Positions 24,001 through 30,000 of a stretch of DNA of 64,000 nt are shown here, one piece after another; positions within the stretch are counted from its first letter, which is position 1; every line of letters begins with the position of its first letter. This DNA is from Dendrobates tinctorius (Eukaryota). The position numbers were made by a program. The stretch is taken from positions 10,664,001 through 10,728,000 of the forward strand of contig NW_027361924.1 of the NCBI RefSeq assembly GCF_039654945.1, read 5' to 3'.

Positions 24001-27000
24001 CATATTGTATTCAGGGGCACAGTGTGGGGTATATTCTATTTAGGGGGCACAGTGTGGGGTATATTCTATTCAGGGGCACAGTGTGGGACATATGCTATTC
24101 AGGGGGCACAGTGTGGGGTATATTCTATTTAGGGGGCACAGTGTGGGGTATATGCTATTCAGGGGCACAGTGTGGGACATATGCTATTCAGGGGGCACAG
24201 TGTGGGGTATATTCTATTTAGGGGGCACAGTGTGGGGTATATGCTATTCAGGGGCACAGTGTGGGACATATGCTATTCAGGGGCACAGTGTGGGCATATT
24301 GTATTCAGGGGGCACAGTGTGGGGTATATTCCATTCAGGGGCACAGTGTGGGGCATATTCTATTCAGGGGGTACAGTATGGGCATATTCTATTCAGGGGT
24401 CACAGTGTGGGGCATATTCTATTCAGGGGCACAGTGTGGGGTATATTCTATTCAGGGGGCACAGTGTGGGGCATATTCTATTCAGGGGCACAGTGTGGGG
24501 CATATTCTATTCAGGGGCACAGTATGGACATATTCTATTCAGGGGCACAGTGTGGGGTATATTCTATTCAGGGGGCACAGTGTGGGGCATATTCTATTCA
24601 GGGGCACAGTATGGGCATATTCTATTCAGGGGCACAGTGTGGGGTATATTCTATTCAGGGGGCACAGTGTGGGGTATATTCTATTCAGGGGGCACAGTGT
24701 GGGGCATATTCTATTCATCGACTGCTACATGTCAGAGTTATCGCAGTATGTGAATGTGCTGGAAAAGAAGGAGCTGAAATCATCTGGGCGCTTGTCCGGA
24801 TGACTCTTGGCCGGGAGAAGCCGTCATGAAGGTCTGGTTAAGGTGGAGAAGAAAAGGGAAGAGAATGACAGCAGGGAAGGCGTCATCCATAAGGTCACAG
24901 AATGGCGCTGACTGCGTCTGGTCAGTCCTGGGGTCTCTGCACGGTCTCCTGAGGGATGATATTCTTATAGAGACTTATCAGGGAACACATCTTGTGAGGG
25001 CCCAAGCGCGTATTACTAGGTCCCCCAGCCCTCACATCACCGGTCCATGCTGACACATTTCTCTGGGCATCTCCTGACTTCACCTGTGCCCAATGTTCTA
25101 GGAACGAGTCCAACTTTTGGGAGTTCGTCTTTATTCTCCAGGTGGCCATTGGCTCTGCTTAACCGGCGCGCCCAAAATCTTATCCAAACACAGCCGATCC
25201 CTTCTTCCCATACAACCTGCCCCTTGGATACTGTGCTGAGTCACTGGGGCTGGCTGCAGTATAAGGAGCAGCTCCCTGTACACACTGATCCTGACTGCGA
25301 AGCTGCACGGATCCTCATGGCTGCCAGGAAGGTTATCACAGTGTTCGGGGCCACAGGTGAGTGCAGGTTATGTGGCTGCGGGGTCCGCGATCCCTCGTGG
25401 GCCTCTGGGCCTATAAAGGAACCCCAGGCCAAAAAATAAGGACCTGTGCAGATGGTGCGCCGTGCTGCACAATTTACAGGGGGTGCAGAAGATGCAGTTG
25501 CACCTGGGCTCTGGTATCACAGGACAGCAGAACTATCACTGACATGGGGTCCGGATAAACGTTTACCCCGAGCAGCGCGTCGGGGTGTGGACATTAGTAA
25601 GGAGGCGCACTAGGTCCAGCGACATTAGTAAGGAGGCGCACTAGGTCCAGCGACATTAGTAAGGAGGCGCACTAGGTCCAGCGACATTAGTAAGGAGGCG
25701 CACTAGGTCCAGAGGGGTCCTGAATGCTTTATAGCAACCTCTACCTCACTTATAGGGAGCTGCATTTTTAAGGGTTAATGCTACAGGAAACTAGATGTAG
25801 GGAAAGTTTACACTGGAAATTCTTAGTGAGATTTCTGGATATAAACACATGAATATGCAGCCGCGATCAGTGATCCATCTTATATCCCGCAGGGTGATCA
25901 GTGATCATCTTATATATCACGCAGGGTGATCAGTGATCATCTTATATCACGCAGGGTGATCAGTGATCATCTTATATCCCGCAGGGTGATCAGTGATCAT
26001 CTTATATACCGCAGGGTGATCAGTGATCATCTTATATCCAGCAGGGCGATCAGTGATCATCTTATATCCCGCAGGGTGATCAGTGATCATCGTATATCCT
26101 GCAGGGCGATCAGTGACCATCTTATATCCCGCAGGGTGATCAGTGACCATCTTATATATCCCGCAGGGTGATCAGTGATCATCTTATATCCCGCAGGGCG
26201 ATCAGTGATCATCTTATATCCCGCAGGGTGATCAGTGATCATCTTATATCCCGGAGGGTGATCAGTGATCATCTTATATATCCCGCAGGTTGATCAGTGA
26301 TCATCTTATATCCCGCAGGGTGATCAGTGATCATCTTATATCCCGCAGGGTGATCAGTGATCATCTTATATTCTATTCAGGGGGACAGTGTGGGGCATAT
26401 TCTATTCAGGGGACACAGTGTGGGGCATATTCTATTCAGGGGGCACAGTGTGGGGTATATTCTATTCATGGGGCACAGTGTGGGGCATATTCTATTCAGG
26501 GGGCACAGTGTGGGGTATATTCTATTCAGGGGGCACAGTGTGGGGTATATTCTATTCAGGGGGCACAGTGTGGGGTATATTCTATTCATGGGGCACAGTG
26601 TGGGGTATATTCTATTCATCGGGCACAGTGTGGGGCATATTCTATTCAGGGGGCACAGTGTGGGGCATATTCTATTCAGGGGGCACAGTGTGGGGCATAT
26701 TCTATTCAGGGGGCACAGTGTGGGGTATATTCTATTCAGGGGGTACAGTGTGGGGCATATTCTATTCAGGGGGCACAGTGTGGGGTATATTCTATTCAGG
26801 GGGCACAGTGTGGGGTATATTCTATTCAGGGGGCACAGTGTGGGGCATATTCTATTCAGGGGGCACAGTGTGGGCTATATTCTATTCAGGGGGCACAGTG
26901 TGGGGTATATTCTATTCAGGGGGCACAGTGTGGGATATATTCTATTCATGGGGCACAGTGTGGGCATATTCTATTCAGGGGCACAGTGTGGGGCATATTC

Positions 27001-30000
27001 TATTCAGGGGGCACAGTGTGGGGCATATTCTATTCAGGGGGCACAGTGTGGGGCATATTCTATTCAGGGGGCACAGTGTGGGCTATATTCTATTCAGGGG
27101 GCACAGTGTGGGGTATATTCTATTCAGGGGGCACAGTGTGGGATATATTCTATTCATGGGGCACACTGTGGGGTATATTCTATTCATGGGGCACAGTGTG
27201 GGGCATATTCTATTCAGGGGGCACAGTGTGGGGCATATTCTATTCAGGGGGCACAGTGTGGGGCATATTCTATTCAGGGGGCACAGTGTGGGCATATTCT
27301 ATTCAGGGGCACAGTGTGGGGTATATTCTATTCAGGGGCACAGTGTGGGGTATGTTCTATTCAGGGGTACAGTGTGGGTTTTTTTTCTATCCAGGGGGCA
27401 CAGTGTGGCGCATATTCTATTCAGGTGGCACAGTGTGGGGTATATTCTATTTAGAGGGAACAGTGTGGGGTATATTCTATTTAGGGGGCACAGTGTGGGG
27501 TATATTCTATTCAGGGGGCACAGAGTGGGGTATATTCTATTTAGAGGTAACAGTGTGGGGTATATTCTATTTAGGGGGCACAGTGTGGGGTATATTCTAT
27601 TCAGGGGGCACAGTGTGGGGTATATTCTATTCAGGGGGCACAGCGTGGGGTATATTCTATTTAGGGGGCACAGTGTGGGGCATATTCTATTCAGGGGGCA
27701 CAGTGTGGGCATATTCTATTCAGGGGCACAGTGTGGGGTATATTCTATTCAGGGGGCACAGTGTGGGGTATATTCTATTCAGGGGGCACAGTGTGGGGCA
27801 TATTCTATTCAGGGAGCACAGTGTGGGGTATATTCTATTTAGGGGGCACAGTGTGGGGTATGTTCTATTCAGGGGGCACAGTGTGGGCATATTCTATTCA
27901 GGGGCACAGTGTGGGGTATATTCTATTCAGGGGGCACAGTGTGGGGTATATTCTATTCAGGGGGCACAGTGTGGGGTATATTCTATTCAGGGGGCACAGT
28001 GTGGGGTATATTCTATTCAGGGGGCACAGTGTGGGGTATGTTCTATTCAGGGGGCACAGTGTGGGGCATATTCTATTTAGGGGGCAAAGTGTGGGGCATA
28101 TTCTATTCAGGGGGCACAGTGTGGGGTATATTCTATTTAGGGGGCACAGTGTGGGGTATGTTCTATTCAGGGGGCACAGTGTGGGGTATATTCTATTCAG
28201 GGGCACAGTGTGGGGCATATTCTATTCAGGGGCACAGTGTGGGGTATATTCTATTCAGGGGGCACAGTGTGGGGTATATTCTATTCAGGGGGCACAGTGT
28301 GGGGTTTATTCTAATCAGGGGGCACAGTGTGGGATATATTCTATTCATGGGGCACAGTGTGGGCATATTCTATTTAGGGGGCACAGTGTGGGGCATATTC
28401 TATTCAGGGGGCACAGTGTGGGGCATATTCTATTCAGGGGCACAGTGTGGGGTATACTATTCAGGGGGCACAGTGTGGGGCATATTCTATTCAGGGGGCA
28501 CAGTGTGCTGCATATTCTATTCATCGACTGCTACCTGTCAGAGTTATTGCAGTATGTGAATGTGCTGGAAAAGAAGGAGCTGAAATCATCTGGGCGCTTG
28601 TCCGGATGACTCTTGGCCGGGAGAAGCCGTCATGAAGGTCTGGTTAAGGTGGAGAAGAAAAGGGAAGAGAATGACAGCAGGGAAGGCGTCATCCATAAGG
28701 TCACAGAATGGAGCTGACTGCGTCTGGTCAGTCCTGGGGTCTCTGCACGGTCTCCTGAGGGATGATATTCTTATAGAGACTTATCAGGGAACACATCTTG
28801 TGAGGGCCCCAGCGCGTATTACAAGGGCCCCCAGCCCTCACATCACCGGTCCATGCTGACACATTTCTCTGGGCATCTCCTGACTTCACCTGTGCCCAAT
28901 GTTCTAGGAACGAGTCCAACTTTTGGGAGTTCGTCTTTATTCTCCAGGTGGCCATTGGCTCTGCTTAACCGGCGCGCCCAAAATCTTATCCAAACACAGC
29001 CGATCCCTTCTTCCCATACAACCTGCCCCTTGGATACTGTGCTGAGTCACTGGGGCTGGCTGCAGTATAAGGAGCAGCTCCCTGTACACACTGATCCTGA
29101 CTGCGAAGCTGCACGGATCCTCATGGCTGCCAGGAAGGTTATCACAGTGTTCGGGGCCACAGGTGAGTGCAGGTTATGTGGCTGCGGGGTCCGCGATCCC
29201 TCGTGGGCCTCTGGGCCTATAAAGGAACCCCAGGCCAAAAAATAAGGACCTGTGCAGACGGTGCGCCGTGCTGCACAATTCACAGGGGGTGCAGAAGATG
29301 TAGTTGCACCTGGGCGCTGGTATCACAGGGCAACAGAACTATCACTGACATGGGGTCCGGATAAACGTTTACCCCGAGCAGCGCGTCGGGGTGTGGACAT
29401 TAGTAAGGAGGCGCACTAGGTCCAGCGACATTAGTAAGGAGGCGCACTAGGTCCAGCGATATTAGTAAGGAGGCGCACTAGGTCCAGCGACATTAGTAAG
29501 GAGGCGCACTAGGTGCAGCGGGGTCCTGAATGCTTTATAGCTACCTCTACCTCACTTATAGGGAGCTGCATCTTCAAGGGTTAATGTTACAGGAAACTAG
29601 ATGTAGGGAAAGTTTACACCGGAAATTCTTAGTGACATTTCTGGATATAAACACATGAATATGCAGCCGCGATCAGTGATCATCTTATATCCCGCAGGGT
29701 GATCAGTGACCATCTTATATCCCGCATGGCGATCAGTGATCATCTTATATCCCGCAGGGTGATCAGTGACCATCTTATATCTCGCAGGGCGATCAGTGAT
29801 CATCTTATATCCAGCAGGGTGATCAGTGACCATCTTATATCTCGCAGGGCGATCAGTGATCATCTTATATCCAGCAGGGCGATCAGTGATCATCTTATAT
29901 ATCCCGCAGGGTGATCAGTGATCATCTTATATCCAGCAGGGCAATCAGTGATCATCTTATATCCCGCAGGGTGATCAGTGATCATCTTATATCCCGCAGG

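What the first reader, a model, noticed from the sequence alone, without database searches (positions are those of the whole stretch)
24718..29669. Minisatellite-bounded tandem duplication gives NMRAL1-A two promoters and two identical ATG exons
The structure is [satA]-U-[satB]-[satA]-U'-[satB]. U (~1.15 kb) holds CCAAT and TATA-like motifs and the 40-nt exon MAARKVITVFGAT-G with its GTGAGT donor, 3806 bp apart in the two copies. The new satB/satA junction at ~26370 (tcttata-ttctattc) lies in shared tatat-like microhomology. Both exons are intact and phase-compatible with exon 2, so the gene would have dual start sites making the same protein. The copies differ by scattered substitutions.
Basis: partly seen in the sequence, partly recalled or inferred. 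Interest (0 to 1): 0.65.

Follow-up and report, generated by a model that had tools for sequence, protein, structure and literature searches.

The report
Duplicated promoter and first exon of frog NMRAL1
A poison-frog NMRAL1 gene carries two head-to-tail copies of its promoter and first coding exon, set between minisatellite arrays; this is an ordinary kind of structural duplication that leaves the protein unchanged.

Summary
A 1147-bp unit at 24718-25864 recurs at 28524-29670, 3806 bp downstream, with 21 substitutions and no gaps (98.2%). The order is satA-U-satB-satA-U'-satB. Each copy holds an intact 40-nt ATG exon with a GTGAGT donor, in phase with exon 2. All five exons translate to exact pieces of NCBI's NMRAL1 of Dendrobates tinctorius.

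The single satB/satA junction (26371/26372) shares only 4-6 nt, and satB occurs nowhere else in the window. That points to a microhomology-mediated tandem duplication, not recombination between repeats.

Two things are new here:
- The substitutions are not scattered. A 431-bp core (-295 to +136 of the ATG) has none (P about 0.001), probably through gene conversion.
- TGASTCA and AGTATAAG each occur three times in 64 kb, only in U, U' and upstream of the neighbouring paralogue's ATG. Both copies therefore carry the family's core-promoter module.

Use of both promoters is untested, and the mRNAs would be indistinguishable. Assembly error is unlikely but not excluded. This is an ordinary kind of event, of modest interest.

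The parts
17442..24717 (.). satA, left array of a 30-bp minisatellite (about 7.3 kb)
   Evidence: TRF. Right boundary with U read and fixed by the boundary string. Left edge read.
24718..25864 (+). U, upstream copy of the duplicated unit (promoter, exon 1, start of intron 1)
   Evidence: 1147 bp, 98.17% identical to 28524-29670, no gaps.
25022..25452 (+). 431-bp core with no difference between the copies (-295 to +136 relative to the ATG); its twin is 28828-29258
   Evidence: Longest mismatch-free run; 195 of 200000 random placements of 21 sites reach it (P = 0.000975).
25237..25265 (+). Core-promoter module, copy 1: TGAGTCA (25237-25243), then 14 nt, then AGTATAAG (25258-25265). The ATG follows 51 nt later.
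   Evidence: each motif has 3 matches in the 64-kb window, all at NMRAL1 5' ends.
25317..25356 (+). Exon 1, copy 1: ATG plus 37 nt, ends in phase 1, GTGAGT donor
   Evidence: The translation equals residues 1-13 of P0002.
25590..25712 (.). 31-bp x 4 tandem repeat in intron 1, copy 1 (twin at 29396-29520, also 4 units)
   Evidence: TRF.
25865..26371 (.). satB, first block of a 30-bp minisatellite (about 17 units)
   Evidence: TRF; 16 core matches.
26367..26372 (.). The only satB/satA junction. TATAT (26367-26371) is shared by the satB unit and the common satA unit variant, giving 4-6 nt of microhomology depending on the satA variant.
   Evidence: Sequence; junction string unique; satA variants.
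26372..28523 (.). satA, internal array (about 2.15 kb)
   Evidence: It is not an in-register copy of the U-proximal part of the left array.
28524..29670 (+). U', downstream copy of the duplicated unit
29043..29071 (+). Core-promoter module, copy 2 (TGAGTCA 29043-29049, AGTATAAG 29064-29071)
29123..29162 (+). Exon 1, copy 2, identical to copy 1
29671..32253 (.). satB, second block (about 86 units), inside intron 1
   Evidence: TRF; 84 core matches.
33819..34057 (+). Exon 2 (239 nt), which completes the GxxGxxG glycine codon begun in exon 1
   Evidence: Splice sites. Pfam NmrA 3.8e-18. Human NMRAL1 chain 2wm3_A residues 16-94, E 4.2e-20. Equals P0002 residues 15-93.
34276..34525 (+). Exon 3 (250 nt)
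   Evidence: NmrA 1.1e-13. Equals P0002 residues 94-176.
34611..34801 (+). Exon 4 (191 nt)
   Evidence: NmrA 1.7e-07. Equals P0002 residues 178-240.
35022..35204 (+). Exon 5 with the stop codon
   Evidence: Equals P0002 residues 241-300. No Pfam hit on its own.
37653..45676 (-). Paralogue NMRAL1-B, tail to tail with A, used as comparator. It has a single exon 1 (ATG 45593) and the promoter module TGACTCA 45676-45670 and AGTATAAG 45660-45653.

Best explanation
This is a real tandem duplication of about 3.8 kb. It copied the 5' module of one NMRAL1 paralogue: the core promoter, the 40-nt first coding exon and the first 508 bp of intron 1.

The two breakpoints lay in two different, unrelated 30-bp minisatellites, satA upstream and satB in intron 1. 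They were joined at 4-6 nt of TATAT microhomology, by template switching or end joining and not by homologous exchange. Since then the arrays have turned over, the unique parts have drifted about 3% apart, and a core of at least 431 bp around the exon has been made or kept identical. I favour gene conversion for that core.

The gene now has two structurally complete, sequence-identical promoter-plus-first-exon modules. Either one splices to exon 2 and gives the same 300-aa protein; intron 1 is 8462 nt from U and 4656 nt from U'. Any effect is therefore on the amount or regulation of transcript, not on the product.

Shown: the structure, the junction, the exon integrity and phase, the gene's identity and the shared promoter module.

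Inferred: that the duplication exists in the animal (I put this at about 0.85), the joining mechanism, gene conversion, and that both promoters fire (about 0.55 if the duplication is real).
For: - Copies: 1147 bp, 21 mismatches, 0 gaps, same orientation, offset 3806.
- Boundaries: the satA/U and U/satB boundaries are identical in both copies, and there is one unique satB/satA junction.
- No substrate for homologous exchange: satB is absent from the rest of the window, with 100 of 100 matches inside the two blocks. No satB lies upstream of the left satA and no satA lies after the second satB.
- satA and satB are not meaningfully alike. The best rotation matches 16 of 30 positions, which 203 of 5000 shuffles reach.
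- No N anywhere in the window.
- Each exon equals a piece of XP_073414751.1 (P0002), covering residues 1-13, 15-93, 94-176, 178-240 and 241-300. The two split codons read G and V, as in P0002.
- Exon-1 peptide: residues 7-14 are the same in 11 of 11 A-type frog orthologues.
- TGASTCA has 3 of 3 window matches, and AGTATAAG 3 of 3, at U, U' and 65-83 nt upstream of paralogue B's ATG (alignment).
- The mismatch-free 431-bp core has P about 0.001. It runs 96 nt into the intron, where 2.8-3.5 changes would be expected (P of none 0.03-0.06). That fits a conversion tract better than promoter constraint alone.
Against: - No reads, depth or expression data could be consulted, so neither the copy number nor the use of either promoter is demonstrated.
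- No frog genome collection was available, so no orthologous locus could be compared.
- The flanking arrays are not recognisable copies of each other. Identity at the expected register is 0.91-0.94, against 0.88-0.92 at shifted registers. satB blocks share no 90-mers, 0 of 418. The extent of the duplicated segment inside the arrays is therefore inferred, not seen.
- CCAAT, ATTGG and TATAA counts in U are at chance level.
- CpG observed/expected around the ATG is only 0.45, so this is not a CpG-island promoter.
- NCBI lists one protein for the gene. Which exon-1 copy its model uses could not be seen.
Confidence: 0.5

Rival explanations
1. The duplication is real but only one copy works as the promoter and first exon. 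The other is a neutral passenger, either silent or read through as intron, and the identical core is a by-product of gene conversion.
For: - The protein is unchanged either way, so nothing requires both copies.
- The identical tract runs into the intron, which suggests conversion and not selection on two promoters.
- Paralogue B manages with a single exon 1.
- An upstream transcript would have to cross 2.15 kb of satA and the second promoter. From general knowledge of tandem promoters, this can silence one of the two.
Against: The two copies are identical from -295 to +136 and both carry the whole conserved module. No sequence difference within that span could switch one copy off. Any inequality would have to come from position alone.
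Confidence: 0.33
2. Assembly artefact: two haplotypes of a single-copy locus, or mis-resolved satellite reads, were laid one after the other, so the animal has one promoter and one exon 1.
For: - The region is 61.6% tandem array and hard to assemble.
- Divergence between copies could in principle be allelic.
- False duplications of exons are documented in vertebrate assemblies (PMC9516828, passages read).
Against: - That paper lists gaps between the duplicated pair among the main hallmarks. Here there is no N in the whole window.
- Placing two alleles in tandem needs a satB-to-satA join, which no allele contains and which shares only 4-6 nt. Overlap-based assembly should not create it (inference).
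- 2.0-3.6% divergence outside the core is high for alleles (general knowledge).
Confidence: 0.13
3. Unequal homologous crossing-over between pre-existing repeated arrays (satA with satA, or satB with satB) produced the duplication, not a microhomology join.
For: Long arrays of identical period flank the unit, and tandem arrays are classic substrates for unequal exchange.
Against: Such an exchange needs the same array on both sides of the unit beforehand. It would leave satB upstream of the left satA, or satA downstream of the second satB. Neither is present.
Confidence: 0.04

Closest known systems
Alternative first exons with their own promoters that arose by tandem duplication (examples recalled, not from a call: the UGT1A and clustered protocadherin variable first exons)
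   Same: A promoter-plus-first-exon cassette repeated head to tail upstream of shared downstream exons. Each cassette has its own splice donor, so use would be mutually exclusive.
   Different: There are only two cassettes. They encode the same 13 1/3 codons and are base-for-base identical over 431 bp, so there is no protein diversity. Use of both is unproven.
Microhomology-mediated tandem duplication and replication template switching (PMC13167724, PMC2583991 and PMC4232551, each seen as search listing and start of abstract only)
   Same: A head-to-tail copy with one novel junction that shares a few bases and no long homology.
   Different: The unit is 3.8 kb, and both breakpoints sit in minisatellites of different sequence. 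Tandem repeats and G-rich sequence at CNV breakpoints are reported in humans (PMC4090240, listing and start of abstract only), so even this is not unusual.
NMRAL1 / HSCARG, NmrA-like NADPH sensor, and its duplication in frogs
   Same: - Exons 2-4 hit Pfam NmrA above the gathering score.
- Exon 2 matches human NMRAL1 chains.
- The protein equals NCBI's D. tinctorius NMRAL1.
- Frogs carry several paralogues per genome.
- Duplicated NMRAL1 orthogroups in frogs are discussed in PMC11342244 (passages read).
   Different: Here it is not the gene that is duplicated but only its 5' module. No paper found by my searches describes that for NMRAL1.
False (heterotype) duplications in genome assemblies (PMC9516828, passages read)
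   Same: Adjacent near-identical copies of an exon in an assembly of a heterozygous animal.
   Different: There is no gap between the copies, and there is a junction that no single allele would contain. Depth and k-mer tests could not be run.

Membership tests
NMRAL1 (NmrA-like family, Pfam PF05368) | NmrA domain detected above Pfam's gathering score | tested here: met
   Each exon was scanned on its own. Exon 2 scored 66.5 bits, exon 3 scored 51.9 and exon 4 scored 31.6, against a cut-off of 27. Exon 5 had no hit.
NMRAL1 (NmrA-like family, Pfam PF05368) | N-terminal Rossmann glycine motif GxxGxxG (motif recalled) | tested here: met
   P0002 reads GATGAQG at residues 11-17. Exon 1 supplies residues 1-13 and the first base of G14, so exon 1 is needed for the motif.
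NMRAL1 (NmrA-like family, Pfam PF05368) | Closest solved and annotated relatives are NMRAL1 | tested here: met
   2wm3_A, NMRAL1, E 4.2e-20 for exon 2. XP_073414751.1 is 100% identical, and all exons are exact substrings of it.
Tandem segmental duplication | Two copies in the same orientation with identical outer boundaries and one novel junction | tested here: met
Tandem segmental duplication | Copy number confirmed in the organism (spanning reads, depth) | not testable with these tools
   No read data and no second assembly were available. The only indirect point is that the window holds no N.
Microhomology-mediated junction | A few shared bases at the junction and no long homology between the joined sequences | tested here: met
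   TATAT or ATAT is shared at 26367-26371. satA versus satB gives at best 16 of 30 matches, reached by 203 of 5000 shuffles.
Alternative promoters / alternative first exons | Each first exon has an intact start codon, a donor site and a phase compatible with the common exon | tested here: met
Alternative promoters / alternative first exons | Promoter elements upstream of each first exon | tested here: inconclusive
   The TGASTCA + AGTATAAG module is present in both copies and in paralogue B, and nowhere else in 64 kb. CCAAT and TATAA counts are at chance. No eukaryotic promoter predictor or binding data were available.
Alternative promoters / alternative first exons | Transcripts starting at both sites | not testable with these tools
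   No expression data. Exon 1 and the 5' leader hold no copy-diagnostic base.

The most novel reading that the evidence does not exclude
Both promoter-plus-first-exon modules are active, and gene conversion keeps them identical. Minisatellite-seeded duplication of just the 5' module would then act as a dosage or regulatory switch for a redox-sensor gene family that is already expanding in frogs. In A the module's TGASTCA site also fits the recalled antioxidant-response core pattern TGACnnnGC (read on the minus strand). If so, the duplication would double a stress-responsive input.
Probability: 0.2. Interest if true: 0.45.

Novelty: new member of a known kind. Interest (0 to 1): 0.25.

Why it matters
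If real, this is a clean natural example of how a gene can gain a second, identical promoter and first exon without any change to its protein. The breakpoints are readable to the base, and a likely conversion tract lies over the functional core.

It also shows that in this satellite-rich genome, minisatellites both bound and break gene 5' ends.

In practice it warns annotators and expression analysts that reads from this gene's first exon map equally to two places 3.8 kb apart.

It does not open a new question. Promoter and first-exon duplication, microhomology joins and conversion between tandem copies are all well known.

Tried and rejected
- Homologous unequal exchange as the origin. Rejected: satB exists only in the two blocks, and satA does not follow the second satB.
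- Finding the duplicated segment inside the arrays. Anchored alignments gave 0.91-0.94 identity at the expected register against 0.88-0.92 at shifted registers. k-mer sharing and BLAST showed the internal satA resembles the far-left 2.5 kb of the left array in many registers at 94-96%, with no single best one. The arrays have turned over, so the breakpoints' original partners cannot be recovered.
- Relatedness of satA and satB. Marginal: 16 of 30 matches, reached by 203 of 5000 shuffles. Not used.
- CCAAT, ATTGG and TATAA as evidence for a promoter. They are present but at chance frequency.
- General alignment of A's upstream region with B's. It is mostly unalignable outside the exon and the two short motifs.
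- Rfam scan of the whole window. 0 matches at gathering score, so no known RNA gene lies in U or the introns.
- Literature. Searches for NMRAL1 + frog + duplication (3 papers), for alternative first exons + tandem duplication + alternative promoters (0 papers) and for alternative first exon + exon duplication + promoter (8 papers, none relevant by title) gave no description of this locus.
The two single-motif searches already answer the question.
- Pfam on the retroelement-like ORFs near 4.5-7.5 kb found nothing. PDB sequence search gave the Ty3 link.
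Full report
**What is there**

The window has no N. By TRF rows of score 200 or more, 61.6% of it is tandem array (39444 of 64000 bases).

Between 17.4 and 32.3 kb the order is as follows:
- satA, 17442-24717, 30-bp unit
- U, 24718-25864
- satB, 25865-26371, 30-bp unit
- satA, 26372-28523
- U', 28524-29670
- satB, 29671-32253

U and U' align over 1147 bp with 21 mismatches (11 transitions, 10 transversions) and no gap, at a constant offset of 3806. No other part of the window resembles U.

The strings that span satA/U and U/satB each occur exactly twice, once per copy. 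The string that spans satB/satA occurs once.

**The gene**

Exon 1 lies at 25317-25356 and again at 29123-29162. It reads ATG plus 37 nt, ends after the first base of a codon, and is followed by GTGAGT.

With AG/GT borders read, the remaining exons are 33819-34057, 34276-34525, 34611-34801 and 35022-35204.

I searched the model exon by exon. I did not build or search a joined coding sequence. This leaves little open, because an annotated full-length protein covers the same ground:
- Exons 2, 3 and 4 each hit Pfam NmrA above the gathering score. Exon 5 has no hit alone.
- Exon 2 matches human NMRAL1 chains at residues 16-94 of 299, E 4.2e-20.
- A protein search with exon 2 returned frog NMRAL1 proteins. 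The top match was P0002 = XP_073414751.1, NMRAL1 of Dendrobates tinctorius, 300 aa, 100% identical.
- Each exon's translation is an exact substring of P0002 (residues 1-13, 15-93, 94-176, 178-240, 241-300). The two codons split by introns read G14 and V177, as in P0002.

The window is therefore frog sequence, most likely of that species or a very close relative. Nothing in it was taken to be human. I made no attempt to tie it to a particular assembly.

Exon 1 is a real part of the gene. It supplies the first half of the GATGAQG glycine motif, and residues 7-14 are the same in 11 of 11 A-type frog orthologues compared.

**How the duplication arose**

A tandem duplication of a segment that starts inside satA and ends inside satB predicts exactly the observed order, with one new satB-to-satA join.

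The join at 26371/26372 shares TATAT with the commonest satA unit variant, ATAT with the other common variant and TTATAT with a rare one. Microhomology is thus 4-6 nt.

Exchange between like arrays is excluded within the window. All 100 matches to the satB core lie in the two blocks. The sequence upstream of the left satA and downstream of the second satB is unique. satA and satB match at best at 16 of 30 positions, which 203 of 5000 shuffles reach.

I therefore infer a microhomology-mediated join. Whether it came from replication template switching or from end joining cannot be told from the sequence.

The arrays themselves no longer show the duplication:
- At the expected register the internal satA is 0.91-0.94 identical to the U-proximal left array, barely above the 0.88-0.92 of shifted registers.
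- Its long k-mers are shared mainly with the far-left 2.5 kb and the last 0.3 kb of the left array.
- No single register stands out.
- The two satB blocks share 0 of 418 90-mers.

Array turnover has thus been much faster than substitution in U. By contrast, the 31-bp x 4 repeat inside U has kept 4 units in both copies.

**Pattern of divergence**

The 21 differences fall as 6 in 304 bp, 0 in 431 bp and 15 in 412 bp. The empty stretch, 25022-25452, runs from 295 nt upstream of the ATG to 96 nt into intron 1. A run that long arose in 0.0975% of 200000 random placements.

Outside it the copies differ by 2.9% (Jukes-Cantor 0.030). With a frog neutral rate of roughly 1e-9 per site per year, that would mean on the order of 15 million years. 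The rate is recalled and not from any call, so this is a rough figure only.

The 5' and 3' flanks do not differ significantly in density (Fisher P 0.26).

The identical tract could reflect selection on two working promoters or a gene-conversion tract. It includes 96 intronic bases where 2.8-3.5 changes were expected (P of none 0.03-0.06), and even constrained promoters tolerate some change. I therefore favour conversion, without excluding constraint.

Both copies also share valine at residue 6, which only P0002 among the 11 A-type proteins compared carries. That fits either a duplication younger than that substitution or conversion.

**Are these promoters?**

CpG observed/expected around the ATG is 0.45.

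Better evidence comes from the neighbouring paralogue, NMRAL1-B. It lies tail to tail on the minus strand at 45593-37653 and has five open exons and one exon 1. Its upstream region is otherwise unalignable with A's. Even so, it has TGACTCA followed 9 nt later by AGTATAAG, with the ATG 59 nt beyond. A has TGAGTCA, then 14 nt, then AGTATAAG, then 51 nt to the ATG.

In the whole 64-kb window TGASTCA occurs 3 times and AGTATAAG 3 times, and all six matches sit at these three 5' ends. In shuffled sequence, 12.9 and 3.8 matches are expected anywhere.

I read this as the family's conserved core-promoter module, present in full in both U and U'. The names for TGASTCA (an AP-1-type site) and the fit of A's site to the antioxidant-response core pattern TGACnnnGC are recalled and are leads only. 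B's site does not fit the longer pattern.

**What it does**

Either exon 1 can splice to exon 2, with an intron of 8462 nt from U and 4656 nt from U', and the protein is the same. The duplication can only alter how much, when or where the gene is transcribed.

The two cores are identical, so any difference between them must come from position. U lies behind a 7.3-kb satA array. U' lies behind a 2.15-kb one and inside the transcription unit of U.

I judge it somewhat more likely than not that both fire, but nothing here tests it.

**Could it be an artefact?**

Passages of PMC9516828 give the hallmarks of false duplications as half depth, gaps between the pair, discordant reads and single-copy k-mers. 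Only the gap criterion can be checked here, and there is no gap.

Laying two alleles in tandem would also need a satB-to-satA join that no allele has. I put the artefact at about 0.13.

**What stayed unchecked**

- No collection of eukaryotic genomes was available. Orthologous loci, other copies of satA or satB in the genome and the age of the event could therefore not be examined.
- No read or RNA data were available.
- The transcript model behind XP_073414751.1 was not visible.
- Paper supplements were not consulted.

**Verdict**

Dual promoter use is plausible but untested. The kind of event is well known, so I file it as a new member of a known kind, of modest interest.

Noticed in passing
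window 37653-45676, minus strand: A second NMRAL1 paralogue (B) lies tail to tail with A. It has one exon 1 (ATG 45593) and open exons 2-5. Its best stored match is a Ranitomeya imitator NMRAL1 (P0086), at 84-97% per exon. None of the four other D. tinctorius NMRAL1 proteins that I fetched from the 120 listed has B's exon-1 or exon-2 sequence.
   Followed up: partly
window 38213-44458: A 6.2-kb array of a 35-bp unit fills an intron of paralogue B, between its exons 3 and 4. Large minisatellites thus sit inside introns of both paralogues.
   Followed up: no
window 25237-25265, 29043-29071, 45653-45676: TGASTCA and AGTATAAG each occur only three times in the 64 kb, always together and 51-59 nt upstream of an NMRAL1 ATG. 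This looks like a conserved promoter module of the family. In A the first motif with its flank fits the recalled antioxidant-response core pattern. In B it does not.
   Followed up: partly
whole window: 61.6% of the window lies in tandem arrays with units of 17-86 bp and higher-order periods up to 200 bp. Several distinct arrays share a 30-bp period (satA, satB, 2253-4166, 7460-7981).
   Followed up: no
window 8778-16669: One 86-bp satellite appears as two blocks (8778-10578 and 14713-16669) on either side of a 4.1-kb stretch. That stretch holds a non-LTR retrotransposon coding region (outer bounds 11112-14398; RVT_1 E 3.3e-31, weak endonuclease hit). It looks like an insertion into the array. 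The coding region lies in more than one frame, and its breaks were not counted.
   Followed up: partly
window 45984-60445: One 41-bp satellite appears as two blocks (45984-50378 and 56412-60445) on either side of a 6-kb stretch. That stretch holds a 51-bp array and a retroelement with reverse-transcriptase and tyrosine-recombinase (Phage_integrase) ORFs, so it is DIRS-like (outer bounds 52156-56160). There are four long ORFs in one orientation. Intactness was not assessed.
   Followed up: partly
window 4490-7460: This is probably the virus-like stretch the operators mention, a remnant of a Ty3/gypsy-type, retrovirus-like LTR retrotransposon. One 120-aa ORF matches Ty3 reverse transcriptase/RNase H (E 1.6e-08) and, weakly, a Pol chain named Pr125Pol. 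A 329-aa ORF has only non-significant Gag hits (E 0.017). Pfam finds nothing. The pol region is fragmentary and spread over several frames. Its breaks were not counted because no intact relative was retrieved. It is described only.
   Followed up: partly
window 25332-25334 and 29138-29140: Residue 6 of the exon-1 peptide is valine here. It differs in 10 of the 11 A-type frog proteins compared, P0002 itself being the one match. The four other dendrobatid orthologues fetched all read isoleucine there. Both copies carry the change.
   Followed up: no
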